From Trueperaceae bacterium (GTDB lineage: Bacteria; Deinococcota; Deinococci; Deinococcales; Trueperaceae), in assembly GCA_034520945.1 (NCBI GenBank), contig JAXHNB010000002.1, positions 128,001-192,000 on the forward strand: a stretch of 64,000 nt of DNA, read 5' to 3'. The notes below the pieces were generated by a model. It searched no databases and was not told the DNA's origin. It saw only the letters and a list, made by a program, of their open reading frames with translations. Of this stretch, positions 1,354-48,376 are shown piece by piece. Position 1 is the first letter of the stretch, and each line of letters begins with the position of its first letter. The translations under genes were made by a program, and so were the position numbers.

Positions 1354-1355
1354 GC

Positions 1356-2715: not shown

Positions 2716-2716
2716 G

Positions 2717-3865
<1,149 letters not shown>

Positions 3866-13264: not shown

Positions 13265-13268
13265 GGCG

Positions 13269-15788: not shown

Positions 15789-15791
15789 GCC

Positions 15792-16796: not shown

Positions 16797-16797
16797 G

Positions 16798-17133
16798 TCA
16801 AGGTTCCTTGGCCGTGACCCAGCGAACGATCCGTTCGGCGGCGACGTCCACGCGCGACGCGGCCGCTGCATCGGCTTCGGCGATCCGTTCGCCCGACCGG
16901 CGCGCCTCCTCCTCGACGGCGTCCTCCGCCTCAGCGAGCGCCTCGCGTTGGGCGCGCTCCGCCTCCGCGCGCGCCTCGTCGCGGGCGGCCCGCACCACCT
17001 CGTCGGCCTCGCGGCGGGCGCGCGCCACGTGCGCCTCCGCCGCGGCGTCCGCGTCTTCGACGCGCCCGCGGGCATCCGCCTCGCTTGCGAGCAACCGGTG
17101 CAGGACCTCCTGCGCCGTCACGGCCTGGCTCAT
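16798..17133 (-). CDS. V/A-type ATP synthase subunit G/H (peripheral stalk)
   Basis: About 111-aa Ala/Glu/Arg coiled coil at the head of the operon. Confidence 0.75.
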   Translation of the reverse strand: MSQAVTAQEVLHRLLASEADARGRVEDADAAAEAHVARARREADEVVRAARDEARAEAERAQREALAEAEDAVEEEARRSGERIAEADAAAASRVDVAAERIVRWVTAKEP

Positions 17134-36234: not shown

Positions 36235-37139
36235 AGTCCGAGCTCCTTCAGGTAGCTTCGGTTGCGGGCGGCGCTCTGCTTGGGGCTGCCGAGGCCTGGC
36301 AGCACGTCCTGTTCGACCACCAGCCAGCCGTGGTAGTCCTGCGCCCGCAGCCGTTCGAGGACGGCGGGGAAGTCGACGATGCCCTGGCCGAGTTCCGGGA
36401 ACACGCCCTGGCGCACCATCTCCGGGTAGCCCCATCCGTGCAGCTCCGCCTCCGCCACCACCTCGGGCGAAAAGTCCTTGAGGTGCACCAACTCGATGCG
36501 GTCGCCGTACCGCTCCAGGTCGGGGGCGGGGTCTCCGCCGCCCAGCGCCACGTGCCCCGTGTCGAAGCACAGGCCCACCAGCGCCGGGTCGGTTCGGTCG
36601 AGGAAGGCCTCGATCTCGGCGGGGGTTTCCACGTAGCTCGCGCCGTGCGCGTGGAAGGCGCAGCGAAGGCCGGTCTCGTCGCGGACGGCGCGGGCCACGC
36701 GGTGGGCCCCCTCGGCGTACTGGTCCAGTTCGCGTTCGCCGAGCGCGTGGGCGGGCAGGATGCGCCCGGCGTAGCGGGTGCGGTCGGGCACGCGCGAGTG
36801 GTCGGGGCCCAGGTTGAGGACGGCGTCGTCGCCGCCGACGGCGCGGACCAGCCGCGCGATCTCTAGCGCGCGTTGCACGTTGCGGTCGGTGTACTCGGGG
36901 TCGTCCAAGCGGACCGTGACCCACGACGCGATCAGGGTGAGGTCGCGCGAGGAAAGCGCCTCGGCCAGGCGGTCCGGATCGGTCGGGAGGAAGCCCAGGT
37001 CGCCGAGCTCGGTGCCGGCGTAGCCCGTCTCGGCCAGTTCGTCCAGGAACCGCATGGGGTCGACGCGGGCGTCCTCGGTGCCGGTGTTCTCGATCGTGCC
37101 CCACGAGCAGGGGGCGTTTCCCACGGGCCATCGCGTCAT
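36231..37139 (-). CDS. iolE: Myo-inosose-2 dehydratase-like sugar phosphate isomerase/epimerase
   Basis: NAPCSWG, GY.GTELG, FH.H, DTGH, HLKD, ELG.G.VDF and VVEQD motifs; lies between iolG and iolC. Confidence 0.85.
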   Translation of the reverse strand: MTRWPVGNAPCSWGTIENTGTEDARVDPMRFLDELAETGYAGTELGDLGFLPTDPDRLAEALSSRDLTLIASWVTVRLDDPEYTDRNVQRALEIARLVRAVGGDDAVLNLGPDHSRVPDRTRYAGRILPAHALGERELDQYAEGAHRVARAVRDETGLRCAFHAHGASYVETPAEIEAFLDRTDPALVGLCFDTGHVALGGGDPAPDLERYGDRIELVHLKDFSPEVVAEAELHGWGYPEMVRQGVFPELGQGIVDFPAVLERLRAQDYHGWLVVEQDVLPGLGSPKQSAARNRSYLKELGL

Positions 37140-38161
37140 TGCGTGCCTCCCGTCGATTCAGGGTCGTGTCGTGCGACCTCCACCGGGCGCCCTTCGCGCT
37201 GCGCGTCGCGGGCCGCCAACGCCAGCCGCAGCGACGCTTCGGCGTCCTCCGGGCCGGGCGAGGGGGCGCGGCCGGCGCGGACGTCGTCGACGAACGCCTG
37301 CAGTTCCAGCCGGTAGGCGTCCCGGAAGCGGTCCAGGAAGTAGTGTACGTGATCGCCGTGGATCCCATTCGCGTCGAAGTGCCACGTCTTGGTGGCGCGC
37401 GCGTCTTCGGCGACGAGCTTGCCGGCCTCGCCGTGCACCTCGATGCGCAGGTCGTAGCCGTACACCGTCCGGCGGGTGTTCTGGATCACGCCGAGCGCGC
37501 CGCTGTCGAACTCGAGCGTCACCACGCTGGTGTCGACGTCGCCGTGCTCCGCGAAGTGATCCGCGACCAACACCCGGCCGGTGGCGTGCACGCGGGTTAC
37601 CTCGCCCATCACGAAGCGGGCCAGGTCCAGGTCGTGAATCGCCGAATCGAGGTACAGCCCGCCTGAGGCCGCGACGTACGCGGGCGGCGGTGGGGCGGGA
37701 TCGGAGGAAAGGCTGCGGAACATCTCCGGCTTGCCGAGTTCGCCCTCGCGCACCGCCCGCGCGAGGGCGCCGAACCCGGGATCGAAGCGGCGGTTCAGCC
37801 CGATCTGGAACGGCGCCTGCTGACGCCGCACCGCCGCGAGGGCGTCCCGGGTGGTGGCCAGGTCCAGCGCGACCGGCTTCTCGCAGAACACCGCCAAGCC
37901 GGCCTCGGCGGCGGCCACCACCTGTTCGGCGTGGACGGGGGTGGGGGAGGCGATCACCACCGCGTCGAGGTCGTCGCGCCCCAGCAGCTCGCCGGCGTCG
38001 GCCGCGATGGCCACCCCGCCTGACGCTGCGCGGCGCGCCGCCGCTTCGTCCGCGTCGTACACGCACGCCAGGCTTGCCCCGTCGACCGCGCCGTACAGGT
38101 GCCGCGCGTGCAGCGCGCCGATGCGGCCGGCGCCGAGCACGCCGAACCGGAGCGTACTCAT
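37136..38161 (-). CDS. iolG: Inositol 2-dehydrogenase (Gfo/Idh/MocA)
   Basis: GAGRIG..H, CEKP, G.NRRFD, SGG..LD..IHD.D, YGYD.R.E and F.DRF..AY motifs. Confidence 0.92.
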   Translation of the reverse strand: MSTLRFGVLGAGRIGALHARHLYGAVDGASLACVYDADEAAARRAASGGVAIAADAGELLGRDDLDAVVIASPTPVHAEQVVAAAEAGLAVFCEKPVALDLATTRDALAAVRRQQAPFQIGLNRRFDPGFGALARAVREGELGKPEMFRSLSSDPAPPPPAYVAASGGLYLDSAIHDLDLARFVMGEVTRVHATGRVLVADHFAEHGDVDTSVVTLEFDSGALGVIQNTRRTVYGYDLRIEVHGEAGKLVAEDARATKTWHFDANGIHGDHVHYFLDRFRDAYRLELQAFVDDVRAGRAPSPGPEDAEASLRLALAARDAQREGRPVEVARHDPESTGGTQ

Positions 38162-40074
38162 GACGCCTCCTCCTCGCTGGGGGCGCGAACGATCACCTGG
38201 CGTTCGCGGGCCCGTTCGTACGCCCGGCGTGCCTCAATGACCGGTTCCTGTGTCGAGGTCTCGGCGACGGGCACGTCCCACCACCCGCCGGTGTCGCCGA
38301 AGTCGGCGGCCTTGTTCGGGTCGACCTCGATGACGACGACGCGTACGCCGCGGGCGTCCCGCGCCGCATGCAGGGCGGCGCGGGCCTGCTCGGCGCTGCG
38401 CGCGGTCGTCGCGTGCGCCCCCATGGACGCGGCGTGCGCGGCGAAGTCGACCGGGAGGTAGGGGCCGTCCGGGCGTCCGCCCCCATTGCGGCCCCGGAGT
38501 TCGACGCCGAAGGTGGGGCTGCCCACGCTGCGTTGCAGCCCGTGGATGGACTGGAAGCCGTGGTTGTCGATCACCACGAAGGTGAGGTCCAGTCCTTCGC
38601 CCACGGCGGTGACGATCTCGGAGTTCATCATCAGGTAGCTGCCGTCCCCCACCAGCACCACCACCGGTCGTTCGGGGTCCGGTTCGGCCAAGCGCACGCC
38701 CAGGCCCGCCGGGATCTCGTACCCCATGCAGCTGTAGCCGTACTCCACGTGATACGCGCGGGGGTCGGTGGGGCGCCACAGCCGCAGCAGGTCGCCCGGC
38801 ATCGAACCGGCCGCGTTGATCACCACCGCGTCACCGCCGAAGGCGTCGTTCACCATCCCCAGCACGCCGCCCTGCGCCAGGCCGTTCTCGTCGCCGAGGT
38901 CGCTTCGTACCCGGTCGACCACGGCGTCCCAAGATTCCTTGAGCGACGCGATGCGGGCACGGCGCGCTTTGCCCGCGGGCGACGCGTGGGTGTCCGCAAG
39001 CGCGCCGTCCAGCGCCTCCAGGCCGACCCGGGCATCGGCGATCAGCGGCAGGGCGGCGAGCTTGTGGGCGTCCATGGCGGCGACGTTGAGGCCGATCACG
39101 GTCGCCGACGCGTCGAAGGCGGTCTTCGACGACGTGGTGAAGTCGCTGAGGCGCGTGCCGACCGCCAGGATTAGGTCCGCCTCGCGAGCCAAGGCGTTGG
39201 CGGCCGAACCGCCGTTCGTGCCGACGGGACCGACCGCCATGTCGTGCGTCCATGGGAGCGAGCCGCGGCCGGCCTGCGTTTCAGCGACGGGCACGCCCCA
39301 TCGCTCGGCGAAGTCGGCCAGCGTGCCTGTGGCGCCGGCGTAGCGCACGCCGCCGCCGGCCACGATCAACGGGGTTCGTGCCCGGCGCCAGGTGGCGACC
39401 GCGTCCGCCAGCGCCTCGCCTTCGGGCGGGGGCCGGCGGATGCGCCAGGTGCGCGGCGCGAAGAACGCCTCGGGCCAGTCGTACGCCTCGACCTGCACGT
39501 CCTCGGGCAGGCTGATCACCACCGCGCCGGTTTCGGCCGGGTCGGTGAGCACCCGCATCGCCTCGGGCAGGGCGTGCAGCAGCTGTTCCGGTCGGCTGAT
39601 GCGCGTGAAGAAACGGGCGACGGGCCGGAAGGCGTCGTTCAGCGACAGGTCGTGCTCGGTGGGGTGCTCCACCTGTTGCAGGACCGGGTCCGGCACGCGG
39701 TTCGCGAAGTAGTCGGACGGCAGCAACAGCACCGGCAGGCGGTTCACCGTGGCGAGCGCCGCGCCACTCAGCATGTTGGTGCTGCCGGGGCCGACCGAGG
39801 CGGTGCAGGCGAGGGTGGCCATGCGGTCGGCGTGCCGCGCGTAGGCGGCGGCGAGGTGCACCTGCGCCTGTTCGTTCTGGGGCCGGTAGAAGGGAAGGTC
39901 GAGGGCGTCACCGTACGCCTCCAACGCCTGACCCAGGCCTGCCACGTTGCCGTGACCGAAGATGCCCCATCCGGCGGGGATCAGGCGTCTGCGCACCCCG
40001 TCCCGCTGGCTGTACTGGACGGCGAGGAAATGCACGAGCGCTTGGGCGACGGTCATGTGGCGTGTCTGGTCCAC
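38158..40074 (-). CDS. iolD: 3D-(3,5/4)-trihydroxycyclohexane-1,2-dione acylhydrolase (TPP-dependent)
   Basis: TVAQAL..FL..Q, GIFGHGNVAG.G, NEQ, PDPVLQQ, EYGYSCMGYE and GDGSYLM motifs; GTG start after GAGGAG. Confidence 0.96.
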   Translation of the reverse strand: MDQTRHMTVAQALVHFLAVQYSQRDGVRRRLIPAGWGIFGHGNVAGLGQALEAYGDALDLPFYRPQNEQAQVHLAAAYARHADRMATLACTASVGPGSTNMLSGAALATVNRLPVLLLPSDYFANRVPDPVLQQVEHPTEHDLSLNDAFRPVARFFTRISRPEQLLHALPEAMRVLTDPAETGAVVISLPEDVQVEAYDWPEAFFAPRTWRIRRPPPEGEALADAVATWRRARTPLIVAGGGVRYAGATGTLADFAERWGVPVAETQAGRGSLPWTHDMAVGPVGTNGGSAANALAREADLILAVGTRLSDFTTSSKTAFDASATVIGLNVAAMDAHKLAALPLIADARVGLEALDGALADTHASPAGKARRARIASLKESWDAVVDRVRSDLGDENGLAQGGVLGMVNDAFGGDAVVINAAGSMPGDLLRLWRPTDPRAYHVEYGYSCMGYEIPAGLGVRLAEPDPERPVVVLVGDGSYLMMNSEIVTAVGEGLDLTFVVIDNHGFQSIHGLQRSVGSPTFGVELRGRNGGGRPDGPYLPVDFAAHAASMGAHATTARSAEQARAALHAARDARGVRVVVIEVDPNKAADFGDTGGWWDVPVAETSTQEPVIEARRAYERARERQVIVRAPSEEEAS

Positions 40075-40461
40075 CGGGGTCTCCTCTGGCGTGAAGTCGG
40101 AACGGGGCCGCGCCGAGGGGGCGTACCCCGCACCGGGCCTTCGCGCGGGCGTTTGCGTCGGACCTCTGAAGACGCGGCAAGGCCCCGCGTGCGGGCGACG
40201 TCGCACGCGTGATCGTGAGCGACTATGGCGCCGTGGAGGGGCCGCTGTCAAGATTGGGTTCGCCCGCGTCGGACGCCTCGGACAGGGGGCGCGCGGACGG
40301 CGGGGTCGTCGCTCGGGACGTTGCGCGCCGTTGCGTCCCTCGTCGCACCGTGCCACCATTCGCGGCGCAACGTCGTCGGCGTGCTCGCACGTGGTGCGGT
40401 ACGTTCAGGTGCCGACCCGGTCGCACGCCATGTTGCTGACGTATCCAAGGGAGGAGCGCTC

Positions 40462-41301
40462 ATGAAGAATCCGTTGCATCCCGCCGCCGGCCGCGGCCCC
40501 GTCCTGGAGGTCACGCCCGCCTCGGCGCAGTGGCGCGACCTGGGGTTCACCGTCGCTCGTTTCGCGAACGGCGACCGGCACCAGGTCGCCAGCCACGGGC
40601 GCGAAATCGCGTTCGTGCCTCAAGCCGGCAGCGTCACCGCGCACGTGGACGGAACGGCGTACACGCTGGCGCGCCGCGGCGTGTTCGAAGCGATGCCGCA
40701 CGTGCTCTACGTGCCGCCCGGCACGGAGGTGACGCTGGAGGCCACAGGCGACGCCGAGATCGCCTGGGGCAGCGCGCCCGCCGACGGGCGCTACCCGGTC
40801 CGACTGTTCGAGCCTAGCGAGATGCGCCGCGAAGTGCGGGGCGGCGGGGCCGCCGTACGCGAGGTGCACCACGTGCTGGCGCACCCGCTGCCGGCGGAAC
40901 GCCTGATCGTGTTCGAGGTGTACGTGCCTGGCGGCGCCTGGTCCGGCTGGCCGCCGCACTGCCACGACGGACGTCAGGGTTCGGCCTACCTGGAGGAGAC
41001 GTACTACTACCGCATCCGGCCCGACACCGGCTTCGCCCTGCACCGCAACTACACCCGCGAGGGGGACATGGACGAGATCGTCGCGGTGCGCGACCGCGAC
41101 CTGATGCTGGTGCCGGGCGGCTTCCATCCGGTCGCCCCGACGCCGGGATCCAACGTCTACTTCCTGAACTTCCTGGCGGGCGACCTGGTGGGCGACGAGC
41201 GCGGTCGGCCGCCGGTCGACGATCCCGATCACGCCTGGATCAAGGAGGCGTGGGGGGACGCGGCGATGACGCTTCCGCTGCGGTTCGACGACGACGGGTG
41301 A
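40462..41301 (+). CDS. iolB: 5-deoxy-glucuronate isomerase
   Basis: R.GVF, E.RG.G, L...EV..P.G.WS..PPH.HD, LEE.YYY, G.HP and Y.LN.LAG motifs. Confidence 0.93.
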   Translation: MKNPLHPAAGRGPVLEVTPASAQWRDLGFTVARFANGDRHQVASHGREIAFVPQAGSVTAHVDGTAYTLARRGVFEAMPHVLYVPPGTEVTLEATGDAEIAWGSAPADGRYPVRLFEPSEMRREVRGGGAAVREVHHVLAHPLPAERLIVFEVYVPGGAWSGWPPHCHDGRQGSAYLEETYYYRIRPDTGFALHRNYTREGDMDEIVAVRDRDLMLVPGGFHPVAPTPGSNVYFLNFLAGDLVGDERGRPPVDDPDHAWIKEAWGDAAMTLPLRFDDDG

Positions 41302-41310
41302 GGGCGGTCC

Positions 41311-42117
41311 GTGGCGTACGCGCCTGACGCCCGCCCCCTGATCCTCGACGCGTACGACCGCGGCTACGCCCTCCCTGCGTTCAACGTGTGCAGCGTAGAG
41401 ATGGTGCGTGCCTGCATCGAGGCGGCCGAGGAGGTACGTGCGCCGATTCTGCTGCAGACGTATCCGGCGGATTTGGCGCAGCTGCCGGCGCCGCACATGG
41501 CGGCCCTGGTCCGCAGCATGGCCGGCGCGGCCGCGGTGCCGGTCGCGCTGCACATGGATCACGGCCCGGACGACGCCACCGTGTTGGCCTGCCTTCGCGC
41601 CGGCTTCGGCAGCGTGATGCTGGACGGCAGCGACCTGGCGCACGACGCGTTGGAAATGCGGACCGCTCGGCTGGCCTGGGTGGCGCACGCGCAGGGCGCC
41701 GCGCTGGAGGTGGCGGCGGAGAGCTTCGACGCCGGTCGCGGCGCGCGCACCGTTCCCGACGAGGCGCGCCGGCTTCGCGAGGCGGGCAGCGACATGGTGG
41801 CGGTGTCGGTCGGCAGCGAGCACGGCCAGGCCGCCACCCTGGACCTGCCGCTGCTGCGCCGCATCGCCGACGCCGTGCAGGGGCCGTTGGTCCTGCACGG
41901 CGGCAGCGGCATCGGCGCGTCCGACCTGCGCGCGGCATGCACCATGGGCGTCGTCAAGGTGAACGTCGGGTCGGCCTCGTACCGGGCGCTGCGCTCCGTG
42001 TGGCGTGACTCCGCCGACGCGCCTAGCCACCGCGCCGTGTACGAGCGCGCCCGGGCCGCCCTGCGAGCCGTGGCGCTGGAACGGATCGACGCCGCGGGCG
42101 CTGCGGCACGGGCGTAG
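41311..42117 (+). CDS. Class II fructose-bisphosphate aldolase family protein, probably IolJ-type
   Basis: AFNV, H.DH, SVM.DGS, G..HG, VLHGGSG and KVN motifs; directly after iolB. Confidence 0.85.
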   Translation: MAYAPDARPLILDAYDRGYALPAFNVCSVEMVRACIEAAEEVRAPILLQTYPADLAQLPAPHMAALVRSMAGAAAVPVALHMDHGPDDATVLACLRAGFGSVMLDGSDLAHDALEMRTARLAWVAHAQGAALEVAAESFDAGRGARTVPDEARRLREAGSDMVAVSVGSEHGQAATLDLPLLRRIADAVQGPLVLHGGSGIGASDLRAACTMGVVKVNVGSASYRALRSVWRDSADAPSHRAVYERARAALRAVALERIDAAGAAARA

Positions 42118-42592: not shown

Positions 42593-42820
42593 TCAGGACC
42601 GAGCCGTGATCGTCGAGACGTCGTATGGCATCACGGCTGGGTCGTGCGTCACTACGGTCAACCCCTCCGTGCGAGCTTGGGCGACCAGCATGCGATCGAA
42701 GGGATCGCGATGGTGGTTCGGCAGGTTCCCAACGGCCAACGCATGCTCGCTGGTGACGTCGAGCGGCGTGAAGCGGTAGTGCGCGAGCATCGCGAGGTAG
42801 TCACGCGGCGCGGCCTTCAA
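42593..42820 (-). pseudogene. vapC: N-terminally deleted VapC (PIN-domain) toxin
   Basis: Keeps HHRDPFDRMLVAQA...VT.D but lacks the N-terminal LLDT and S..E segments. Confidence 0.8.
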
Positions 42821-43049
42821 CGGCGTCCAAGACGTCGTCGGGGAGGGGCGCGTCGAAGTCGTCAGCGATGGCGATGCGTCCCGCCCAATAGCCGTGCGAC
42901 AGATCGCGGGGACGGTCGTCGGCCTGAACCACGCTCAGGCGCACCAGTGGGCGCCCGGCGCGGGCGATGACCACCTCCTCGCCGGCCAGCGCTTGGTCGA
43001 CGAGGCGCGAGAGTTTCGCCTTCGCTTCGGTAATGTTGACGATCCGCAT
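42801..43049 (-). CDS. Phd/YefM family antitoxin
   Basis: VNI.EAKAKLSRLV....GEEVVIARAG.P.VRL...G.I.IADDFD.PLP pattern; GGAGG RBS. Confidence 0.92.
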   Translation of the reverse strand: MRIVNITEAKAKLSRLVDQALAGEEVVIARAGRPLVRLSVVQADDRPRDLSHGYWAGRIAIADDFDAPLPDDVLDAVEGRAA

Positions 43050-43092: not shown

Positions 43093-43671
43093 TCATGGCG
43101 CAGCTTCGCCCGGGTCGCCGCCGGTCACTTGGGCGAGGGCGTCCTGGTGGACCGCCAGGTCGCGCGCCGTGAAGAGCACGAACCGGACCAACCGCACGTG
43201 CTGCAGGTTGAGCGCGACGTCGGCGATCGTGCCGAGCGCCACGTGCGCGGCGTCCTCGACCGGGTAGCCGAACGCGCCGGTCGAGATGGCCGGAAACGCG
43301 AGCGACGACATCTCCTTCTTCTCGGCCAAGCGCAACGCATTGCGGTAGCCCTCAGCCAGGAGCTCGTCGCTGGGCGTGTCCAGCCCGTATACGGGGCCGA
43401 GCACGTGAATCACGTAGCGATTGGCGAGCCCATGCCCACCGGTCACGACCGCTTGGCCCGGCCGGATGGGGCCCAGCGGCACGGCCTCCGCTTCGAGCCC
43501 GGATCCCGCCGCCCGATGAATCGCGCCGGCCACGCCCCCGCCGATGCGCAGTTGCGCGTTGGCGGCGTTCACCACGGCGTCCACGTCCGGTTGGCGGACG
43601 ATGTCGCCTTGGACGAGTTCGACGTGGACCCGTCCGAACGTCCGGCTGGTGGGTGTTGGTGACTGTGCCAT
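43093..43671 (-). CDS. Macrodomain protein (YmdB-like O-acetyl-ADP-ribose deacetylase)
   Basis: GDI, VNAAN..L..GGGVAGAIHRAAG, VIH..GP and AFPAISTG.FGYP motifs. Confidence 0.95.
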   Translation of the reverse strand: MAQSPTPTSRTFGRVHVELVQGDIVRQPDVDAVVNAANAQLRIGGGVAGAIHRAAGSGLEAEAVPLGPIRPGQAVVTGGHGLANRYVIHVLGPVYGLDTPSDELLAEGYRNALRLAEKKEMSSLAFPAISTGAFGYPVEDAAHVALGTIADVALNLQHVRLVRFVLFTARDLAVHQDALAQVTGGDPGEAAP

Positions 43672-44006
43672 GGGGACCTCCGTCCCTCAGCGTAGCGCCG
43701 AAGCGCGGGTCCCACGCGTCTCCTGCGAGGCCGTCCAAGACCGGAGATGAGCCATGTTGTCGCGTTTGGGACGGCTCCGGGGGTGGGACGAATTTCCCTG
43801 TTGGCGCGCGGTGTACCCCCGGTAGCGTTCCTGTGTACGCCTGATGAGGAGCCTTGCATCGGCAGCGCGCTCCGGGCGTTCGGGCCTGCGACCCGTAACG
43901 GTCATCACTGGGTTCGGAAAGGAGGGGTTCTGGAGGACGTCGTGTCGTTTCCAGAAGCAACAACGCACACGCTGTCAATGCAATGCCCACTCGAAGGGAG
44001 TCCGCA

Positions 44007-44513
44007 ATGAACCGATTCGTCAAGACCATGACGGCGCTCGTCGCCGCCACTACGCTCCTCGGCGCCGCCTGGGCCCAAGGCTTGGGGGAAGACCTCACCG
44101 TCCGCATGGGCGAGATGTACTTCCAGATCGAAGGTCAGGAAAAGAACGCGCCGATCGAACTCGAAGCCGGCGTGCCCTACCGCATCACTTTCGTCAACGA
44201 AGGCGACGTGGAGCACCGCGTCAAGTTCGGCCGTAGCGTCGAGGCCGAAGAAGGCGTCCCCTTCGACTACGCCGAGCACCTGTTCGACGGGGTGTTCACG
44301 CGCGCGACCGGCATGGCCGGCAACCGGCAATTCTCGGTCGACACCGGTCAGCTGCTGGAGCTCGACGTGCAGCCCGGTGCCGTGGTGCTGGTCAGCTTCA
44401 CGTTGCCGACCTCCACGCGGGGCGAGTGGGAGATCGGCTGCTTCGTCCCCGCGACGCGTGACACGCCGAACCACTACATCGCCGGCATGCGCGCTCCGCT
44501 CATCATCGAGTGA
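44007..44513 (+). CDS. Exported cupredoxin with type-1 copper ligands (CopI/plastocyanin-like)
   Basis: Signal peptide ending AWAQ; F.N.G..EH and GEWEIGC-x10-H-x4-M give the His, Cys, His, Met ligand set. Confidence 0.82.
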   Translation: MNRFVKTMTALVAATTLLGAAWAQGLGEDLTVRMGEMYFQIEGQEKNAPIELEAGVPYRITFVNEGDVEHRVKFGRSVEAEEGVPFDYAEHLFDGVFTRATGMAGNRQFSVDTGQLLELDVQPGAVVLVSFTLPTSTRGEWEIGCFVPATRDTPNHYIAGMRAPLIIE

Positions 44514-44545
44514 CGTCGCATACCACAAAACGAACGGGAGAATTC

Positions 44546-45904
44546 ATGATGAAGGTACGCATTTTCATTCTCAGCCTGAGCATCGCCGCCTTGGCAATGT
44601 TCGGCGCCGCTACGGCGCAGGACGACGGCGACTGGGCCACCGAGTGGTCCGACATGGTCAACGTGCACCTGTTGGCCGACCTCGATTCCTCCGGTCCGCC
44701 CGCGTGGGATCCCGAAGAGCACCCGGACGTGTTCATCACCACCGAGGGCATGGGCTACTCCGGCCTGATGGGCTCGCCCAACTCGCCCGGCCTGGCGATC
44801 ATCGACGCCAACACCTACGAGCCCGTCGCGTCGCAGAGCTACGAGCTGGAAGGCGCCGACGAGTACTTCGAGCCGCACGGCCTGGGCGTCTCGTCCGACG
44901 GCCGCTGGATCTACCTGCCGACCGGCACCAGCCCCGGCTTCGGTGCCGTGGGGACCGGCCGCTTGCTCATCATCGACGCCTACACGCTCAAGATCGACAA
45001 GATCCTCTCCACGCCTACCAACCCCCACCACGCCAAGAGCTTCACCCACGCCGATGGGCGCGAGCTGGTGTTGGCCTACACCTTCCGTGAGGGTGGGTTC
45101 TACATCCTCGACCCCAACGACGACAACCGCATGGTCGGGAGCGTCCCCAACCGCGAGCTGCAGGGCAACGGCTATCTCGCCTTCACCACCCCCGACGGGG
45201 AGTACCTGCTGATCAGCACGCGTCCCCCCTCCGGCGTGGACGCCCACGGGTTCGTGTCGGTCATCGACACCGAAACCTGGGAGCTGGTCCGCAACATCGA
45301 GGTGCTGGACTCCGATCCCATCTGGATCGCCATCACCGCCGACGGAAACGAAGCGCTCGTGACGGGCGGGCACGACAGCAACCTGACGCGCCTGTCGCTC
45401 GAAGGGGACGTCTCCGACTGGCACGTCGACGGCGCCGCCAACGCGGCCGCGCTCGGGCCCTACGGCGTGCACTACAACTGGGACGAGGACCGCGCGTTCG
45501 TGGTCAGCAAGGGCGAAGCCACCCACAACCGCGGCATCACCCTCGGCGAGGTGAACCCCGTCATCATGCAGCCTCCGCCCCTGCACTCCTGGGCGCCGGG
45601 TCCCGTCGCCACGCACCACACCGCTTGCATCCGTGGCGACCACGGTACCGTGCACCCGGACATCGACCGGGACGAGCTGTGGATCACCTGCAACGGTAGC
45701 TTCGAGATCGTCGTGTTCGACATGTTCGCCAAGGAGGTCAAGGAGCGCATCCCCATGCCGAACGGGGGCAGCACGCACTCCGGCGCCTTCGTTCACTACG
45801 AGGCCGACCCGATGGCGTCGACCGAAGGCACCGTCCTGTCGGACCAGAACGGCATGCACGGTCCCGCACTGCAGACCAAGCGGGAGATCCTCGGTCTCGA
45901 ATAG
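44546..45904 (+). CDS. Exported His-rich beta-propeller protein (YncE/cd1-d1/NosZ-propeller-like fold), function unknown
   Basis: Signal peptide ending ATAQ; repeated blades (PHGLGVSSDGRWIY, LLIIDA.T, TPDGEYL, VSVIDTET, PIWIAITADG, IVVFD). About 19 His; no CxxCH. Confidence 0.75.
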   Translation: MMKVRIFILSLSIAALAMFGAATAQDDGDWATEWSDMVNVHLLADLDSSGPPAWDPEEHPDVFITTEGMGYSGLMGSPNSPGLAIIDANTYEPVASQSYELEGADEYFEPHGLGVSSDGRWIYLPTGTSPGFGAVGTGRLLIIDAYTLKIDKILSTPTNPHHAKSFTHADGRELVLAYTFREGGFYILDPNDDNRMVGSVPNRELQGNGYLAFTTPDGEYLLISTRPPSGVDAHGFVSVIDTETWELVRNIEVLDSDPIWIAITADGNEALVTGGHDSNLTRLSLEGDVSDWHVDGAANAAALGPYGVHYNWDEDRAFVVSKGEATHNRGITLGEVNPVIMQPPPLHSWAPGPVATHHTACIRGDHGTVHPDIDRDELWITCNGSFEIVVFDMFAKEVKERIPMPNGGSTHSGAFVHYEADPMASTEGTVLSDQNGMHGPALQTKREILGLE

Positions 45905-45919
45905 ACCGGCGGAACGCTC

Positions 45920-45945
45920 GGTGGGGAGGCGCGCGCCTCCCCACC
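45920..45945 (+). terminator. Intercistronic palindromic stem-loop after the propeller gene
   Basis: ggtggggaggcgcgcgcctccccacc is a perfect 26-nt palindrome. Confidence 0.6.
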
Positions 45946-45968
45946 CCCTTCGGAGGGAGTCCAGCACC

Positions 45969-46571
45969 ATGACCACGAGTTCCTATGTTCGTGTCGCGAT
46001 TCTTGCCCTCTTGATGCCGTTCGCGTTCCTTGCGTCGGCGCAGGAGGAGGCGCCCGACCCGGAGTTGGTCAAGCGCGGGCAAGATCTTTACTACAACGTG
46101 GCCGGAACGGGCTGCGTCACCTGTCACGGCGTCGCGGGCCTCGGCGACATCGGCATCGGCCCGAACATCCGCGGCGTGCCGGTGGTCCGCATCGAGGGCG
46201 CTCTGGATGCTGCCGAGGAGATGGCGTTCCTGCATCCGGTGCTCAGCGAGGACGACCTGGTGGCGCTGGAGGCCTACCTGGCGTACGTCGAAACCCTCGT
46301 TCCCGCCACGACCACCGTACGCGGTGGTGCGTTCCAACCCGACGAGGTCAGGTTGCCTGCCGGCCAGCAGGTGCAGTTGATCGTCGACAACGGAAACCGC
46401 TCACCCTGCACCTTGGTCGTCGACGGTGTCGACGTGCAGGCCACCATCGACGGGCGCAGCACCGGCGACGTGTCGTGGACCACCGGCAGTGCCGGTACGC
46501 AGACCGTGGCCTATTGCCAGGACGAGCCCGACGTCCAACTCACGGTTCGCATCGTCGAACCCGAGGAGTGA
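45969..46571 (+). CDS. Exported class I cytochrome c fused to a C-terminal cupredoxin-like domain
   Basis: Signal peptide ending ASAQ; G..LY...CVTCHG..G.G..GP and a distal Met (EEM); then F.P..V.LPAG..V.L...N...C...YC cupredoxin-like domain. Confidence 0.85.
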   Translation: MTTSSYVRVAILALLMPFAFLASAQEEAPDPELVKRGQDLYYNVAGTGCVTCHGVAGLGDIGIGPNIRGVPVVRIEGALDAAEEMAFLHPVLSEDDLVALEAYLAYVETLVPATTTVRGGAFQPDEVRLPAGQQVQLIVDNGNRSPCTLVVDGVDVQATIDGRSTGDVSWTTGSAGTQTVAYCQDEPDVQLTVRIVEPEE

Positions 46572-46575
46572 GACC

Positions 46576-47586
46576 ATGACGAGCCTGACGCGACGACTGG
46601 CGGGCCTCCTGATCGTGGTCGCCCTGGTGATGGGCGCTGCGATCGCACAGGACGACCATTCGGACGACGGTGAGGCGGAAGCCCTCACCATGAACGAGGC
46701 CATGCAGATGCTCACGCGCAGCGGAAGGGTGCCGCTGGCCGACGAGCACGACCACGACCAGATTCACGTCGACGTGCTGTACGCGCACCCGATCGTGTAC
46801 CGCTCGGGCGGCAACGAAGTGCCCGAGGCGGTGTACGAGGGCGACGAAGTGATCGTGTTCGTCACCGAGAACATCCACGCCGGCGAGTTCAGCTGGGATC
46901 CGGTCAAATTCGACCTGTACGTCGACGGGCGCGGCCCCATCGCGCCGGTGCGGTCCGAACAGGTGTCGCCCGACCCGCACCACCGCGCCACGCGGCACCA
47001 TTACCGCCTGGAGGAGGGCGAGGGCCCGCTATTGCGCAGCGACAGCTCGCGCTTGGAGCTGCGGCCCCAGGCCGGCAGCAGCAAGGCCGAGTTCGCGTGG
47101 GATCTCCCGCTCGAACTGGGCGAGGTGCGCTTCCACGGCCTCGAACCCACCGATGAGCCCCTCGACCTGAGCGACGCGCCGGTGTTGCGCGTCGAAGCGA
47201 CCGAAGACACCTACGTGCACTCGGGCCTCGTGGTGCCGGTGGGCGAGCCCGTCGTGGTCTTGTTCCGCAACGACACCGACGACGAACACCATTTCCACGT
47301 CCTGGACCTCGCCATCGACGGCACCATGCGCTGGCTCCAGACCGCGGGCGAGGCCGACCTGTTCACCGACGCCGAGCTGCGCCAGGCCACCCAGCTGCCC
47401 GACCACATCTGCGACAGCGACAGCGGCATCTGCCCCACGGGGCAGAGCGTGCACCTGCACGCCAACCCCCACGGGTCCGATGCGATCGCCTTCGTGCCGA
47501 AGGAGGTCGGCACCTTCGAGGTGGTGGACCCGCTGTTCCCGGAGCGGAGCGCGGAGTTCGAGGTCGTCGCCGGGGACGCTGGCTGA
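46576..47586 (+). CDS. Exported His-rich two-domain protein with a C-terminal cupredoxin-like domain (candidate metal chaperone)
   Basis: Signal peptide ending AIAQ; EHDHD, ENIH, DPHHR, RHH, VPVGEPV...F.N....EHHFH, HIC-x5-C, VHLHA and F.P...GTF. Confidence 0.65.
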   Translation: MTSLTRRLAGLLIVVALVMGAAIAQDDHSDDGEAEALTMNEAMQMLTRSGRVPLADEHDHDQIHVDVLYAHPIVYRSGGNEVPEAVYEGDEVIVFVTENIHAGEFSWDPVKFDLYVDGRGPIAPVRSEQVSPDPHHRATRHHYRLEEGEGPLLRSDSSRLELRPQAGSSKAEFAWDLPLELGEVRFHGLEPTDEPLDLSDAPVLRVEATEDTYVHSGLVVPVGEPVVVLFRNDTDDEHHFHVLDLAIDGTMRWLQTAGEADLFTDAELRQATQLPDHICDSDSGICPTGQSVHLHANPHGSDAIAFVPKEVGTFEVVDPLFPERSAEFEVVAGDAG

Positions 47587-47633
47587 CGCAACGCACGATG
47601 GCGCCCCTGCTCGCACCAGCGCGAGCGATCCAA

Positions 47634-47670
47634 AGCGACCTGCGTAGGGACGGTTTCTGCGCAGGTCGCT
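47634..47670. terminator. Stem-loop between the convergent copper operon and GST gene
   Basis: agcgacctgcgtag...ctgcgcaggtcgct forms a 14-bp stem with one G-U pair. Confidence 0.6.
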
Positions 47671-48376
47671 ATCGTTCGTCGTCGAGCGATTCGAGGTCGG
47701 ATGCTCGGGGTGCGGTCGAGCGCCATTGTGCGAAGGGGACGCCCACGGTGTCCCGACTCACCATCACGGCCGGGCGAGTGTCGAGGCTGGCCAGCCACGA
47801 CCCGAGACGGGGCAGGTCGGTGTCGGGCAGCCCGAAGCGCCGGTAGCCGGACAGCCACGCGTACACGCAAACGTCGGCGGCGGAGGGTCCAGGAAGGTCA
47901 GGGGCTGCCACGATCCATCGGCCGCCGGACCGCTCGAGCGCCTCTTCGACGGCATGTAGATGCCGGCGCCCCTCCGCGAGCAGGGTCTCCGCGCGGACGT
48001 GATCGATGCCCGCCTCAGGCGGCTCGATCAACTGCCAGTACAGGTGATGGCTGACGTCCCGAAGGGGACCGCTGGACCAGTCGATCCACGTCAGGACGTC
48101 ACGGCGGGCGCGTTCGTCGGCGGGAAATGAGCGTGGTTCGGGATGGGCCACCTCGAGGTGCAGCAGAATGTCCAGCGAGTCCAGGTGGGCGCCGTCCTCA
48201 TCGAAGTAGGCAGGGACCTTTCCTCGGGGATTCAGTGCGAGGTAGGCGGCCGTCTTTTGCTCCCGGGTCCTCAGGTCGATCTCGACACGGTCGAACCGCA
48301 CGCCCTTTTCGTGCAGGGCGATGGATACCTTGAAGCAGTGCGGGCTCCGGCGCGAGCTGAACAGCGTGGGGCGCAT
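47669..48376 (-). CDS. Glutathione S-transferase family protein
   Basis: SP.C.KV.I.L.EKG, Y..LNP.GKVP, DS..IL.HL and S.AD motifs. Confidence 0.9.
   Translation of the reverse strand: MRPTLFSSRRSPHCFKVSIALHEKGVRFDRVEIDLRTREQKTAAYLALNPRGKVPAYFDEDGAHLDSLDILLHLEVAHPEPRSFPADERARRDVLTWIDWSSGPLRDVSHHLYWQLIEPPEAGIDHVRAETLLAEGRRHLHAVEEALERSGGRWIVAAPDLPGPSAADVCVYAWLSGYRRFGLPDTDLPRLGSWLASLDTRPAVMVSRDTVGVPFAQWRSTAPRASDLESLDDER

What the first reader, a model, noticed from the sequence alone, without database searches (positions are those of the whole stretch)
44546..45904. Beta-propeller with blade-start histidines resembling a stand-alone multi-copper (CuZ-like) catalytic domain
Seen in sequence: EPHG, NPHHA, GDHG and STHSG put His at the position just before a blade's first strand, the same position as PIW and PYG in other blades. 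Further His occur in GGHD, ATHN and THHT, about 19 in total, with only two Cys. Established knowledge: in NosZ the CuZ cluster is held by seven such propeller histidines, including an HH pair and an EPH motif, with electrons supplied by a fused cupredoxin (CuA) domain. Inference: this could be a 'split' analogue in which electron entry comes from the neighbouring type-1 cupredoxin and cytochrome. The order of motifs differs from NosZ, so it is not called nosZ.
Basis: partly seen in the sequence, partly recalled or inferred. Interest (0 to 1): 0.75.

Follow-up and report, generated by a model that had tools for sequence, protein, structure and literature searches.

The report
Histidine-lined propeller enzyme of unknown substrate
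A secreted ring-shaped protein with a strictly conserved cluster of histidines, encoded beside a cytochrome and copper-type proteins, probably belongs to an undescribed family of metal enzymes built like the enzyme that destroys nitrous oxide, but its substrate is unknown.

Summary
Window 44546-45904 (+) encodes a 452-aa exported beta-propeller with 19 His and 2 Cys. The four motifs called blade-start (EPHG, NPHHA, GDHG, STHSG) carry exactly the five His that stay invariant down to 23% identity.

For it:
- These His sit at the x of the P-x-G that opens the innermost strand, the position that carries several CuZ ligands in NosZ.
- A cytochrome c plus cupredoxin-fold domain follows the propeller, as next gene or fused, in 51 of 64 loci.
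- A fused homologue's best solved-structure matches are all N2O reductases.
- SCO1, YtkA-like and His-rich DsbD-like maturation genes recur nearby.

Against it:
- The protein fails every curated model of NosZ, clade III L-NosZ and SELENBP1, and shows no specific similarity to thiocyanate dehydrogenase.
- nosDFYL is absent.
- The neighbouring cupredoxin domain lacks a canonical copper ligand set.
- I could not measure His-His distances, because model coordinates are not exposed.

Best reading: an uncharacterised family of periplasmic, cytochrome-c-linked metal (probably copper) oxidoreductases, analogous to NosZ and TcDH but a member of neither. Its substrate is unknown. All 73 related genome loci come from metagenome-assembled genomes.

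The parts
44007..44513 (+). Small exported cupredoxin (168 aa) with a type-1-like ligand pattern: VEH...GC-x10-H-x4-M
   Evidence: Translation. No Pfam or NCBIfam family. Relatives with GCFQxGHYxxGM lie beside the propeller in L004 and L005, and tblastn finds it in 6 of 74 loci. The 'type 1' label rests on the motif and on recalled knowledge of blue copper sites.
44546..45904 (+). The finding: an exported YVTN-type beta-propeller, 452 aa (P0001)
   Evidence: pLDDT 91.6; Foldseek 1l0q E 7e-15; NosZ 5i5j at rank 5, TMq 0.56; homologues.
44546..44620 (+). Signal peptide, residues 1-25, Sec type (no RR motif)
   Evidence: Sequence reading. Residues 1-11 have pLDDT below 50.
44876..44878 (+). H111 (EPHG), start of the innermost strand. 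Core invariant.
   Evidence: 101/101 and 50/52. Strand 112-115. Aligns to the P-x-G of the 1l0q repeats.
45026..45031 (+). H161-H162 pair (NPHHA), start of the innermost strand. Core invariant.
   Evidence: 101/101 each; 51/52 and 50/52. Strand 160-167.
45641..45643 (+). H366 (GDHG), start of the innermost strand. Core invariant, preceded by D365.
   Evidence: 101/101 and 52/52. D365 is 50/52. Strand 364-369.
45776..45778 (+). H411 (STHSG), before the C-terminal innermost strand that I read as closing blade I. Core invariant.
   Evidence: 100/101 and 52/52. Strand 413-419. The closure is inferred from strand order and from the NosZ precedent.
45524..45526 (+). H327 (KGEATHN), in the loop between strands 317-321 and 332-336. 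Specific to the subfamily. K322 and E324 beside it are near-universal.
   Evidence: H327 is 101/101 but 21/52. K322 is 51/52 and E324 46/52.
44720..44722 (+). H59 (EEHPD), specific to the subfamily. Its location relative to the hub is uncertain.
   Evidence: 96/101 and 23/52, with Gly in another 23. It precedes strand 61-68.
45626..45691 (+). C361 and C382, the only two Cys. They flank the first two strands of the H366 blade and are probably a disulfide or extra ligands.
   Evidence: 100/101 each and 22/52 each, lost together in most of the remaining rows.
45969..46571 (+). Exported class-I cytochrome c domain (CVTCH at 46113-46127, Met at 46221-46223) fused to a cupredoxin-fold domain (46293-46568) whose only conserved ligand-type residues are Cys (C147, C183)
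   Evidence: Pfam Cytochrom_C 24.6 bits (cut-off 21.3) and Cupredoxin_1 26.7 bits (cut-off 27). CxxCH and Met are 28/28 and C183 is 28/28; the second Cys sits at position 147 or in a CxxC. The domain follows the propeller in 51 of 64 loci.
46576..47586 (+). Exported His-rich protein (336 aa). Its N-terminal domain is related to the periplasmic domain of the DsbD_TM fusion proteins of other loci. Its C-terminal part is a weak cupredoxin-like domain with HHFH...C...C...H-x-H. Presumed metal-loading or electron-transfer accessory.
   Evidence: Cupredoxin_1 19 bits, below cut-off; the His domain lies downstream in 43 of 56 loci. My calls used 46573 as the start, one residue before the ATG.

Best explanation
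The ORF encodes the catalytic subunit of a small periplasmic redox module from an uncharacterised protein family.

The protein is exported by the Sec route and folds into a YVTN-type propeller, most likely seven-bladed. Five histidines open the innermost strands of four neighbouring blades: H411 on the closing blade, H111, the H161/H162 pair, and H366. They are conserved throughout the superfamily. In the window's subfamily they are joined by H327, E109, K322, E324, D365 and the Cys pair C361/C382.

By analogy with NosZ and thiocyanate dehydrogenase, I infer that these residues hold a two- or three-ion metal site, probably copper, at the hub on one face of the ring. The three remaining blades present Tyr, Trp and Tyr (Y210, W260, Y306) and would shape a substrate pocket.

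Electrons would pass between this site and the respiratory chain through the co-transcribed cytochrome c / cupredoxin-fold protein, which is fused to the propeller in many relatives, and perhaps through the upstream blue-copper-type protein. The fourth gene would load the metal. In other genomes this role would fall to a His-rich DsbD-like membrane protein, SCO1, YtkA-like proteins and a small propeller ending in Cys-His.

Shown: conservation, repeat position, fold, synteny and fusions.
Inferred: side chains converging at the hub, copper as the metal, and redox catalysis.
Not known: the substrate and the direction of electron flow. My single best guess is reduction of a small N-oxide (N2O or NO). 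Oxidation of a small sulfur or nitrogen compound is nearly as likely.
For: 1. Conservation. The five core His are kept in 50-52 of 52 full-length relatives down to 23% identity, along with D189 (51), K322 (51) and D365 (50). Seven His are kept in 96-101 of 101 closer homologues.

2. Position. The core His are the x of the P-x-G that opens strand A. A real NosZ shows His in the same motif type: SPHG, EPHD, LHHPH. In NosZ the ligands come from six of seven blades, two from one blade, and one from the strand that the C-terminus lends to blade I (PMC11573801, passages).

3. Fold. The model has pLDDT 91.6. Seven-bladed targets score higher by target-normalised TM (YncE 0.74, WDR61 0.75, lactonase 4qrj 0.70) than NirF (0.51) or cd1 chains (0.54-0.55). 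Atlas models of Lactonase/YNCE-family proteins (PF10282, 'Lactonase, 7-bladed') superpose at 0.74-0.87 by row.

4. Redox partners. A cytochrome c domain follows the propeller in 51 of 64 loci with enough downstream sequence. 19 of 120 listed homologues are 619-702 aa fusions. Distant members carry C-terminal domains that hit the CuA region of NosZ models (E 2e-7 to 3e-9) or CopI, plastocyanin or halocyanin models. Archaeal loci have a 175-aa protein hitting the NosZ CuA region instead (E 1.3e-4).

5. Architecture. The model of fused homologue P0070 (pLDDT 89) finds N2O reductases in all 16 rows shown above rank 20 (E 5.8e-17).

6. Metal-handling neighbours.
- A His-rich domain plus DsbD_TM protein lies downstream in 43 of 56 loci, with invariant H130, H163/H164, C244 and CxxC.
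- SCO1 is present in 18 of 74 loci.
- YtkA-like proteins are present in 10 and 14 of 74.
- ResA/TlpA-like thioredoxins also recur.
- A small propeller with an invariant C-terminal Cys-His is found in all 16 sequences aligned.

7. Predicted complex of the propeller with the window's cytochrome/cupredoxin protein: weak support.
- Score 0.35, best of 3 controls 0.00.
- The mark was reached by 116 of 157 solved complexes and 2 of 215 mismatched pairs, but at 0.60 or under by only 18 of the 157 and by both mismatches that passed.
- The runs agree in at least 52% of contacts, and the partner's pLDDT is at least 85.
- My own alignments were used, so the counts hold only roughly.
Against: - No distance between His side chains was measured. 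The tools give no coordinates, so convergence at the hub is inferred from repeat position only.
- H59 may lie on the other face, if strand 61-68 is the second strand of the closing blade.
- The number of blades (7 or 8) is not settled by the strand list alone: there are 30 strands.
- No experiment or model shows which metal binds. AztD shows that a His-lined pore in a periplasmic propeller can bind zinc without catalysis (PMC6689063, passages).
- The cupredoxin-fold domain next door keeps only one invariant Cys plus a second, movable Cys, and no His/Met set. It may carry a disulfide rather than copper, and the SCO1/thioredoxin/DsbD genes might serve that domain rather than the propeller.
- The window itself has no SCO1, DsbD_TM or YtkA gene next to the cluster.
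- Profile comparison with NosZ found nothing for the propeller (probability 1-2.5%).
- The complex prediction passed only weakly.
- The two-component systems beside many Chloroflexota loci are NarL/NarQ-type with GAF/PAS domains, not copper sensors.
Confidence: 0.55

Rival explanations
1. It is a true nitrous oxide reductase of a fourth, unrecognised type. The hub histidines assemble a CuZ-like copper(-sulfide) cluster, and the cytochrome c / cupredoxin module replaces CuA as the electron entry.
For: - The domain logic matches NosZ: the top 16 rows shown for the fused homologue are N2O reductases.
- CuA-like domains are fused or adjacent in distant and archaeal members.
- His sit on the closing blade, two following blades and the last blade, as in NosZ.
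- Clade III NosZ shows that N2O reductases can lack nosDFYL (PMC13685413, passages).
- Possible sulfur donors are nearby: rhodanese in 6 of 74 loci, and one merged gene model joining propeller, DsbD_TM and rhodanese.
- NarL-type regulators with GAF/PAS sensors sit beside many loci.
Against: - P0001 scores 10.5 bits on TIGR04246 (cut-off 625) and gives no hit at all on L-NosZ NF052460 at E<=1. A real NosZ scores 1128 bits on TIGR04244 and 178 bits on L-NosZ.
- It has no Pfam nos_propeller domains.
- Only five His are universal, and none opens the fifth or sixth blade.
- No CuA ligand set is present in the window's partner.
- No nosD/F/Y/L or ABC/MacB genes recur in the neighbourhood.
- The family also occurs in Nitrosopumilales/Thaumarchaeota MAGs. 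From recalled knowledge, ammonia-oxidising members of these groups are not known to respire N2O; whether these MAGs are ammonia oxidisers was not checked.
Confidence: 0.12
2. It is a dehydrogenase of the thiocyanate-dehydrogenase kind. A histidine-only trinuclear copper site oxidises a small sulfur or nitrogen compound (thiocyanate, thiol, sulfide, hydroxylamine) and passes the electrons to the cytochrome c.
For: - TcDH is a seven-bladed propeller with three Cu in the central tunnel. It has seven active-site His, including an HH pair, plus Lys, Glu and Asp, and hands electrons to a c-type cytochrome (PMC9456337 and PMC6504805, passages). The window family likewise keeps an HH pair, K322, E324, D189 and D365.
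- TcDH needs no NosDFY. Copper-transport genes lie beside it, and in the halophilic sulfur oxidisers a thioredoxin-like protein does too. Here copper-handling, thioredoxin-like and rhodanese genes recur.
- The hosts are mostly aerobes or facultative aerobes, judged from the record titles and recalled physiology.
Against: - No TcDH chain matches P0001 at E<=10, and none matches the A1 profile.
- The broader A2 profile reaches TcDH chains only at E 4e-4 to 6e-4 and a related chain (8q9x) at 8e-7. This is no better than lactonases, and it aligns other blades. The trimmed profile gives E 0.048.
- No TcDH appears among the 41 Foldseek rows shown (ranks 1-50).
- P0001 has a Sec-type signal, whereas TcDH has a Tat signal.
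Confidence: 0.12
3. It is not an enzyme but a periplasmic metal-binding protein: a chaperone, a store or a copper-homeostasis component. It would hold metal in a His-lined pore, like AztD.
For: - AztD is a periplasmic propeller with a three-His zinc site in its central pore, a conserved disulfide and a C-terminal His used in transfer.
- The window protein has a conserved Cys pair.
- Neighbours are dominated by metal-handling proteins. A two-domain multicopper oxidase that scores best on the CopA model lies beside 3 loci.
- CopI-like domains are fused in 8 of 52 relatives.
Against: - Fusion or adjacency to a cytochrome c in 51 of 64 loci is not expected for a passive binder.
- P0001 has no hit to the AztD model at E<=1.
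- The adjacent regulators are not metal sensors.
- The invariant Lys, Glu and Asp next to the His suggest chemistry rather than storage. This last point is an inference.
Confidence: 0.12
4. It is a generic YncE-type propeller used for binding or scaffolding, and the histidines are incidental.
For: Sources name some homologues 'YncE family protein'. The best sequence and fold matches are unspecialised YVTN propellers.
Against: Five His are kept in 50-52 of 52 relatives at a mean column identity of 16%. Dedicated redox and metal-handling neighbours recur. P0001 scores 11 bits on the YncE model, whose cut-off is 400.
Confidence: 0.03

Closest known systems
Nitrous oxide reductase NosZ (clades I and II)
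   Same: - A periplasmic propeller whose ligand His sit in P-H-G-type motifs at the start of innermost strands, with one consecutive HH pair and one His on the strand that closes the ring.
- A cupredoxin-fold (PF13473) domain lies C-terminal to the propeller in fused relatives.
- NosZ is the best solved match of the fused form.
- Export is by the Sec route, as in clade II.
   Different: - No detectable sequence-profile relationship for the propeller.
- The His pattern by blade differs: the pair sits one blade later, and no His opens the fifth or sixth blade.
- Only five His are universal.
- A cytochrome c is inserted before the cupredoxin domain, and that domain lacks the CuA ligand set.
- No nosRDFYL genes. 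The domain arrangement in the model differs (rmsd about 24 A, TM 0.37-0.43).
Clade III lactonase-type N2O reductase (L-NosZ, NCBIfam NF052460)
   Same: A divergent propeller-based enzyme found mainly in uncultured lineages, without nosDFYL.
   Different: - P0001 gives no hit to NF052460 at E<=1. 39 of 52 relatives hit it weakly (best 69 bits, cut-off 700), with the matches seen out of register, no better than other YVTN-repeat models.
- The gene neighbourhood differs: b-type cytochromes and ABC/MacB transporters there, against cytochrome c/cupredoxin, a DsbD-like protein and SCO1 here.
- The original paper (Nature 2025, doi 10.1038/s41586-025-09401-4) was not held. What I know of it comes from papers that cite it.
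Thiocyanate dehydrogenase (TcDH)
   Same: A seven-bladed propeller with a His-only multicopper site in the central tunnel, an HH pair, Lys/Glu/Asp helpers, a c-type cytochrome partner and copper-supply genes nearby.
   Different: Only generic, out-of-register sequence similarity. A Tat signal there against a Sec signal here. No fused redox domains are reported for TcDH. The order of the His along the chain differs.
AztD zinc metallochaperone
   Same: A periplasmic propeller with a His-lined central pore site and a conserved Cys pair. A C-terminal His is used for metal hand-over, which recalls the Cys-His end of the small propeller in related operons.
   Different: AztD is eight-bladed, binds zinc, has no redox partner and belongs to another family: P0001 gives no hit to NF038015 at E<=1.
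Propeller dehydrogenases and reductases with cytochrome c domains (cd1 nitrite reductase, NirN)
   Same: A periplasmic propeller joined to a class-I cytochrome c domain. They rank among the best fold matches.
   Different: Their propellers bind organic or haem cofactors (haem d1) rather than a His-ligated metal site, and the cytochrome domain is N-terminal in cd1/NirN. Both points are recalled knowledge.

Membership tests
NosZ (clades I/II) | Reaches the curated NCBIfam models TIGR04244 / TIGR04246 (cut-off 625 bits) | tested here: not met
   P0001 scores 10.5 bits (E 0.13) on TIGR04246 and has no TIGR04244 hit. Positive control: S. meliloti NosZ scores 1128 and 478 bits.
NosZ (clades I/II) | Pfam nos_propeller domains PF18764 / PF18793 | tested here: not met
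   No hit at E<=1. NosZ homologues carry both domains.
NosZ (clades I/II) | Seven CuZ His: one on each blade except blade IV, two on blade II, and the blade I ligand on the strand lent by the C-terminus (PMC11573801) | tested here: not met
   By DSSP strand order, His open the closing blade (H411), the next blade (H111), the third (H161/162) and the last (H366). The other three blades open with Y210, W260 and Y306. H327 sits in a loop of the sixth blade. So the closing-strand His and the HH pair are matched, but the overall pattern is not. Blade numbering is inferred; it was not read from coordinates.
NosZ (clades I/II) | C-terminal CuA domain with two Cys, two His and Met | tested here: not met
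   The window protein has no such domain. The neighbouring cupredoxin-fold domain keeps C183 (28/28) and a second Cys, but no conserved His or Met. Some distant relatives and the archaeal neighbours do hit the NosZ CuA region.
NosZ (clades I/II) | nosR/nosDFYL accessory genes in the cluster | tested here: not met
   None appear among the recurrent neighbour families scanned, nor among the 48 window ORFs scanned against Pfam. Rare neighbours were not all scanned.
Clade III L-NosZ | Reaches NCBIfam NF052460 (cut-off 700 bits) | tested here: not met
   P0001 has no hit at E<=1. The best relative scores 69 bits, and the matches seen are out of register. A clade I NosZ scores 178 bits on the same model.
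Thiocyanate dehydrogenase | Sequence similarity to solved TcDH chains, with the active-site set K103, H135, H136, Q156, H206, E288, D314, H381, H437, H482, H528, D529, R544 (PMC6504805, Fig. 4 legend) | tested here: not met
   No TcDH hit for P0001 or for profile A1. Profile A2 reaches TcDH at E 4e-4 to 6e-4, aligning TcDH 435-519 to profile positions 242-328, which carry no His. A residue-by-residue structural superposition was not possible.
Thiocyanate dehydrogenase | Tat export | tested here: not met
   The signal peptide MMKVRIFILSLSIAALAMFGAATAQ has no twin arginine. TcDH is Tat-exported.
SELENBP1 / methanethiol oxidase | Pfam SBP56 (PF05694; accession recalled) | tested here: not met
   No hit at E<=1, and none among the 41 Foldseek rows shown (ranks 1-50).
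YVTN / YncE-type beta-propeller superfamily (fold level) | Repeated P-x-G ... (S/P)DG ... YV blades and a propeller fold | tested here: met
   hmmsearch of A1 against 1l0q gives E 1.6e-9; A2 gives 1.9e-44. Foldseek 1l0q gives E 7e-15. The repeat register is shown. The curated YncE equivalog itself is not met (11 bits, cut-off 400).
AztD metallochaperone | Reaches NCBIfam NF038015 | tested here: not met
   P0001 has no hit at E<=1. 4 of 52 relatives hit it weakly (best E 5.4e-5).

The most novel reading that the evidence does not exclude
The family is a new respiratory copper enzyme of the nitrogen cycle. It would reduce N2O (or NO) using a histidine-held copper cluster assembled without NosDFYL, and would be fed by its own cytochrome c / cupredoxin module. 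That would give N2O- or NO-consuming capacity to lineages now scored as lacking nosZ: Woeseiaceae, many Chloroflexota, Trueperaceae and some Nitrosopumilales.
Probability: 0.12. Interest if true: 0.9.

Novelty: new variant of a known kind. Interest (0 to 1): 0.65.

Why it matters
Only a few enzymes use a histidine-lined propeller hub to hold several copper ions. From recalled knowledge the main examples are NosZ and thiocyanate dehydrogenase. Each catalyses a reaction of biogeochemical weight.

This family has the same design logic and its own redox and maturation genes, and it is widespread. One search found 312 proteins at E<=1e-3 among the 8000 candidates scored. One search found 111 representative clusters at E<=1e-10. 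One search found 73 loci in species-representative genomes, all of them MAGs, from marine-sediment Woeseiaceae, groundwater Chloroflexota, Trueperaceae and Nitrosopumilales.

It has no Pfam or NCBIfam family and no mention in the papers I could search. Finding its substrate could add a missing step to nitrogen or sulfur budgets, and a new way to assemble a multicopper site.

Tried and rejected
- **Profile comparison with NosZ.** Profile A1 against one NosZ sequence gave probability 1.1%. Against an alignment of 18 NosZ sequences, all 85% or more identical to the query and so a shallow profile, it gave 2.5%. Only the cupredoxin tails were aligned.
- **Looking for TcDH by sequence**. Only generic propeller-level hits appeared. 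The trimmed profile did not bring TcDH into the printed alignments.
- **L-NosZ.** 39 of 52 relatives match the model, which looked promising. The scores are 29-69 bits, the matches seen are out of register and no better than those to hydrazine synthase beta or PQQ-associated propellers. I rejected this as repeat-level similarity.
- **Copper-sensing regulation.** The neighbouring two-component systems are NarL/NarQ-type with GAF/PAS domains, not CopRS/CusRS.
- **Nitrite reductase next door.** The two-domain multicopper oxidases in 3 loci score 78-89 bits on the NirK model (cut-off 296) and 87-157 bits on CopA. The result is undecided.
- **Longer fused forms.** One 910-aa hit appeared, from a eukaryote proteome set. 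It joins propeller, DsbD_TM and rhodanese and is probably a merged gene model. I used it only as a hint of adjacency.
- **Promoter and terminator scan** of 43600-47900: nothing above the shuffles.
- **Papers.**
  - The L-N2OR Nature paper and the TcDH PNAS paper are not held.
  - A search for 'L-N2OR' found nothing.
  - The Tenderiales preprint and the DPANN 'nosZ-like' preprint describe other proteins.
  - Searches found no description of this family.
- **Greedy ORF calling** in the GC-rich loci picked the antisense ORF of the propeller in 13 loci (cluster 'u564'). The neighbour counts were therefore redone with tblastn.


Full report
**What is there.** Window 44546-45904 (+) is an open frame of 452 codons. 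It begins with a hydrophobic signal peptide without a twin arginine, preceded by a GGGAG-type ribosome site.

It is the second of four tightly spaced genes on the + strand:
- 44007-44513: a 168-aa exported cupredoxin with an H...C...H...M pattern.
- 44546-45904: the propeller.
- 45969-46571: a 200-aa exported protein with a class-I cytochrome c domain (CVTCH) and a Cupredoxin_1-type domain.
- 46576-47586: a 336-aa exported His-rich protein.

The gaps between the genes are 32, 64 and 4 bases. The flanking genes are unrelated: a Phd/PIN pair, a Macro-domain protein, a GST, a dipeptidase and peptide ABC transporters. GC content dips to 0.66 over 44-46 kb, against about 0.70-0.73 on either side.

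**The observation.** His content alone is not unusual: 4.2%, against 1.0-6.8% in 21 other window ORFs. The conservation is what is unusual.

From the 120 homologues listed, I aligned 101. The 19 left out were short fragments and near-duplicates, dropped by eye before any count. In that alignment H111, H161, H162, H327 and H366 are invariant (101/101). H411 is 100/101, H59 is 96/101, and both Cys are 100/101. The mean column identity is 35%.

I then aligned 52 full-length relatives, picked down to 23% identity, again dropping fragments. Five His survive: H366 and H411 (52/52), H161 (51/52), and H111 and H162 (50/52). They are kept together with D189 (51), K322 (51), D365 (50), E324 (46), Y210 (47), Y306 (47) and W260 (42). 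The mean column identity is 16%.

H59, H327, E109 and the Cys pair mark one subfamily, which includes the window protein. The other subfamily has Gly or Ala at 59 and 327. H276, H357 and H358 are not conserved.

**Fold and register.** AlphaFold2 on the 101-row alignment gives pLDDT 91.6 and pTM 0.91, with 30 strands. The core His lie at or just before the first residue of strands 112-115, 160-167, 364-369 and 413-419.

A profile of residues 95-210 aligns EPHG...S-x-DG...Y onto each sPxGvavSPDGkxvYV repeat of the solved YVTN propeller 1l0q. So the His is the x of P-x-G, the opening of the innermost strand.

I read the ring as seven-bladed, for three reasons:
- Targets I recall as seven-bladed score higher by target-normalised TM (YncE 0.74, WDR61 0.75, lactonase 4qrj 0.70) than targets I recall as eight-bladed (NirF 0.51, cd1 chains 0.54-0.55).
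- ESM Atlas models of Lactonase/YNCE-family proteins (PF10282, named 'Lactonase, 7-bladed') superpose over query residues about 57-444 at 0.74-0.87 by row.
- On that reading, strand 413-419 with H411 is the innermost strand of the blade whose other strands (61-68, 82-87, 93-98) come from the N-terminus. NosZ closes its ring the same way (PMC11573801, passages).

Strands 41-45 and 427-433 would then form an N/C-terminal extension, and H59 might lie on the opposite face. This is inference from the strand list.

**Is it a member of a known family?** No.
- Pfam gives nothing above E 0.03, and no nos_propeller or SBP56 hit.
- On NCBIfam, P0001 scores 10.5 bits on the Sec-type NosZ model (cut-off 625). 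It gives no hit at E<=1 on the clade III L-NosZ model NF052460 or on AztD.
- As a control I fetched a real NosZ from S. meliloti pSymA. It scores 1128 bits on TIGR04244 and 178 bits on L-NosZ.
- 39 of 52 relatives touch the L-NosZ model, but at 69 bits at most and, in the matches seen, out of register. That is no better than hydrazine synthase beta or PQQ-associated propellers.
- hhalign of the family against NosZ finds nothing for the propeller.
- Thiocyanate dehydrogenase chains are not hit by P0001 or by the close profile. The broad profile reaches them at E about 5e-4, on blades without His.
- Foldseek places the propeller among generic relatives: 1l0q, NirN, YncE, NosZ at rank 5, cd1, amine dehydrogenases and lactonases. 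TM by query is 0.38-0.57.

**What it resembles in design.** A real NosZ shows its ligand His in the same motif type: LHHPH, TVHG, SPHG, GPLHT, GHNH and EPHD. The ligand list H132, H133, H181, H323, H378, H429 and H490, and the blade assignment, come from passages of PMC11573801.

On my blade reading, both proteins put His on the closing blade, the next two blades and the last blade, and both have one HH pair. The pair sits one blade later here. The fifth and sixth blades open with Trp and Tyr instead of His.

Thiocyanate dehydrogenase also has seven active-site His including an HH pair, plus Lys, Glu and Asp (PMC6504805, Fig. 4 legend).

The whole-protein architecture points to NosZ. Of the 120 listed homologues, 19 are 619-702 aa and add a cytochrome c and a PF13473 cupredoxin domain. 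A model of one of them (P0070, pLDDT 89) finds N2O reductases in all 16 rows shown above rank 20 (E 5.8e-17). The rmsd is about 24 A, so the domain order matches but the arrangement does not. Distant relatives end in domains that hit the CuA region of NosZ models, or CopI, plastocyanin or halocyanin models. Archaeal loci have a 175-aa protein with H...C-x4-C-x2-H that hits the NosZ CuA region.

**Context in 73 related loci.** All 73 come from MAGs: Trueperaceae, Fraserbacteria, Acetothermia, Acidimicrobiaceae, many Chloroflexota, Alpha-, Beta-, Gamma- and Deltaproteobacteria including Woeseiaceae, Arenicellaceae and Porticoccaceae, and three Thaumarchaeota/Nitrosopumilales.

My first ORF calls picked antisense frames in GC-rich loci, so I recounted with tblastn over these 73 loci plus the window's own region (74 in all).
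- A cytochrome c domain follows the propeller within 900 bases in 51 of 64 loci with enough sequence.
- A protein with a His-rich periplasmic domain and a DsbD_TM membrane domain follows in 43 of 56. It has invariant H130, H163/H164, C244 and a CxxC.
- A 371-aa second propeller follows in 15 of 47. It ends in Cys-His in all 16 sequences aligned.
- SCO1 is present in 18 of 74, YtkA-like proteins in 10 and 14 of 74, rhodanese in 6, and a two-domain multicopper oxidase in 3.
- ResA/TlpA-like thioredoxins also recur.
- Many Chloroflexota loci have a NarL/NarQ-type two-component system with GAF/PAS domains upstream, not a copper sensor.

The cytochrome domain keeps CxxCH and the Met (28/28). The cupredoxin-fold domain keeps one Cys (28/28) and a second Cys, either on the neighbouring strand or as CxxC, but no His/Met set. 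It may hold a disulfide or an unusual site.

**Partner prediction.** A predicted complex of the propeller with the window's cytochrome/cupredoxin protein gave weak support.
- Score 0.35, best of 3 controls 0.00.
- The mark was reached by 116 of 157 solved complexes and 2 of 215 mismatched pairs, but at 0.60 or under by only 18 of the 157 and by both mismatches that passed.
- The runs agree in at least 52% of contacts, and the partner's pLDDT is at least 85.
- My own alignments were used, so the counts hold only roughly.

**How it most likely works.** The propeller is exported unfolded and receives its metal in the periplasm from dedicated accessory proteins. It then holds two or three ions, probably copper, between the five core His, with H327 added in this subfamily. 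These lie on one face at the hub. K322, E324, D189 and D365 would act as second-shell or catalytic groups. Y210, W260 and Y306 would wall the other half of the pocket.

The cytochrome c / cupredoxin-fold protein couples this site to the respiratory chain. It is fused to the propeller in many lineages, and replaced by a CuA-like protein in archaea, which from recalled knowledge generally lack c-type cytochromes.

- Shown: conservation, repeat position, fold class, fusions and synteny.
- Inferred: hub geometry, copper, catalysis.
- Unknown: substrate and direction of electron flow.

I give about 0.55 to this general reading. Within it, N2O or NO reduction gets about 0.12 and TcDH-like oxidation of a small sulfur or nitrogen compound about 0.12. 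Outside it, a non-catalytic metal-binding role like AztD gets about 0.12, and a plain YncE-type binder about 0.03.

**Novelty.** The family has no Pfam or NCBIfam model. Its source names are 'hypothetical protein' or 'YncE family', and the nearest Atlas clusters are unnamed. I found no description of it in full-text searches.

It is best filed as a new variant of a known kind: His-lined propeller metalloenzymes coupled to cupredoxin or cytochrome partners. It is not a member of NosZ, L-NosZ or TcDH. Two key papers were not held (the L-N2OR paper in Nature 2025 and the TcDH paper in PNAS 2020). Their supplements could bear on whether sequences of this family were already seen and set aside.

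Noticed in passing
L030:11504-12619 (and 15 further loci, e.g. L024, L025, L029, L038, L039): A second, smaller propeller (about 371 aa) is encoded after the DsbD-like gene in proteobacterial operons. It ends in an invariant Cys-His at the very C-terminus (16 of 16 aligned). This recalls the C-terminal His that AztD uses to hand over zinc, so it is possibly a dedicated metallochaperone.
   Followed up: partly
L030:10066-11493 (43 of 56 loci downstream of the propeller): A fusion of an unassigned His-bearing periplasmic domain (invariant H130, H163/H164) with a DsbD_TM/CcdA-like membrane domain that keeps C244 and a CxxC. The window's fourth gene (46576-47586) has the periplasmic domain but a cupredoxin-like C-terminus instead of the membrane part.
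   Followed up: partly
L049:2026-3516 with L049:3618-5591; L064:6104-7606 with L064:7713-9266: Two Chloroflexi loci carry tandem paralogues. A five-His type (Gly at 59, Ala at 327; about 28% identity to P0001) lies directly upstream of the seven-His type.
   Followed up: partly
L068:9326-9853, L069:4216-4752, L071:9209-9712: In the three Thaumarchaeota/Nitrosopumilales loci, the gene after the propeller is a 167-178 aa membrane-anchored cupredoxin rather than a cytochrome. It has H...C-x4-C-x2-H and weakly hits the CuA region of the NosZ model (E 1.3e-4).
   Followed up: partly
window 42593-43049 (-): A Phd/YefM antitoxin gene (82 aa, Pfam E 5e-10) overlaps a PIN-domain ORF. As called, that ORF covers only the C-terminal half of the PIN profile (positions 56-112 of 120), so it is a toxin-antitoxin pair whose toxin may be truncated or start elsewhere.
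   Followed up: partly
window 44001-46000: GC content falls to 0.66 over the propeller cluster, against about 0.70-0.73 in the neighbouring 2-kb bins. Together with the unrelated flanking genes, this hints that the four-gene cluster was acquired as a unit.
   Followed up: no
window 571-3895 (-): Three adjacent ORFs carry Oxidored_q6 (NiFe-hydrogenase small-subunit type), NAD_binding_1 and Fer4_22 domains. They look like part of a soluble NAD(P)-linked hydrogenase or sulfhydrogenase-like module running off the window edge.
   Followed up: no
window 8802-17075 (-) and 36231-42117: A V/A-type ATPase operon (subunits D, A, I and C/AC39), and an inositol-catabolism-like cluster (xylose-isomerase-like TIM barrel, GFO/IDH/MocA dehydrogenase, TPP enzyme, KduI/IolB, class II aldolase).
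   Followed up: no
P0389: A 910-aa protein from a eukaryote proteome set joins a propeller of this family (42% identity) with DsbD_TM and rhodanese domains. It is probably a merged model of adjacent bacterial genes in a contaminating contig.
   Followed up: no
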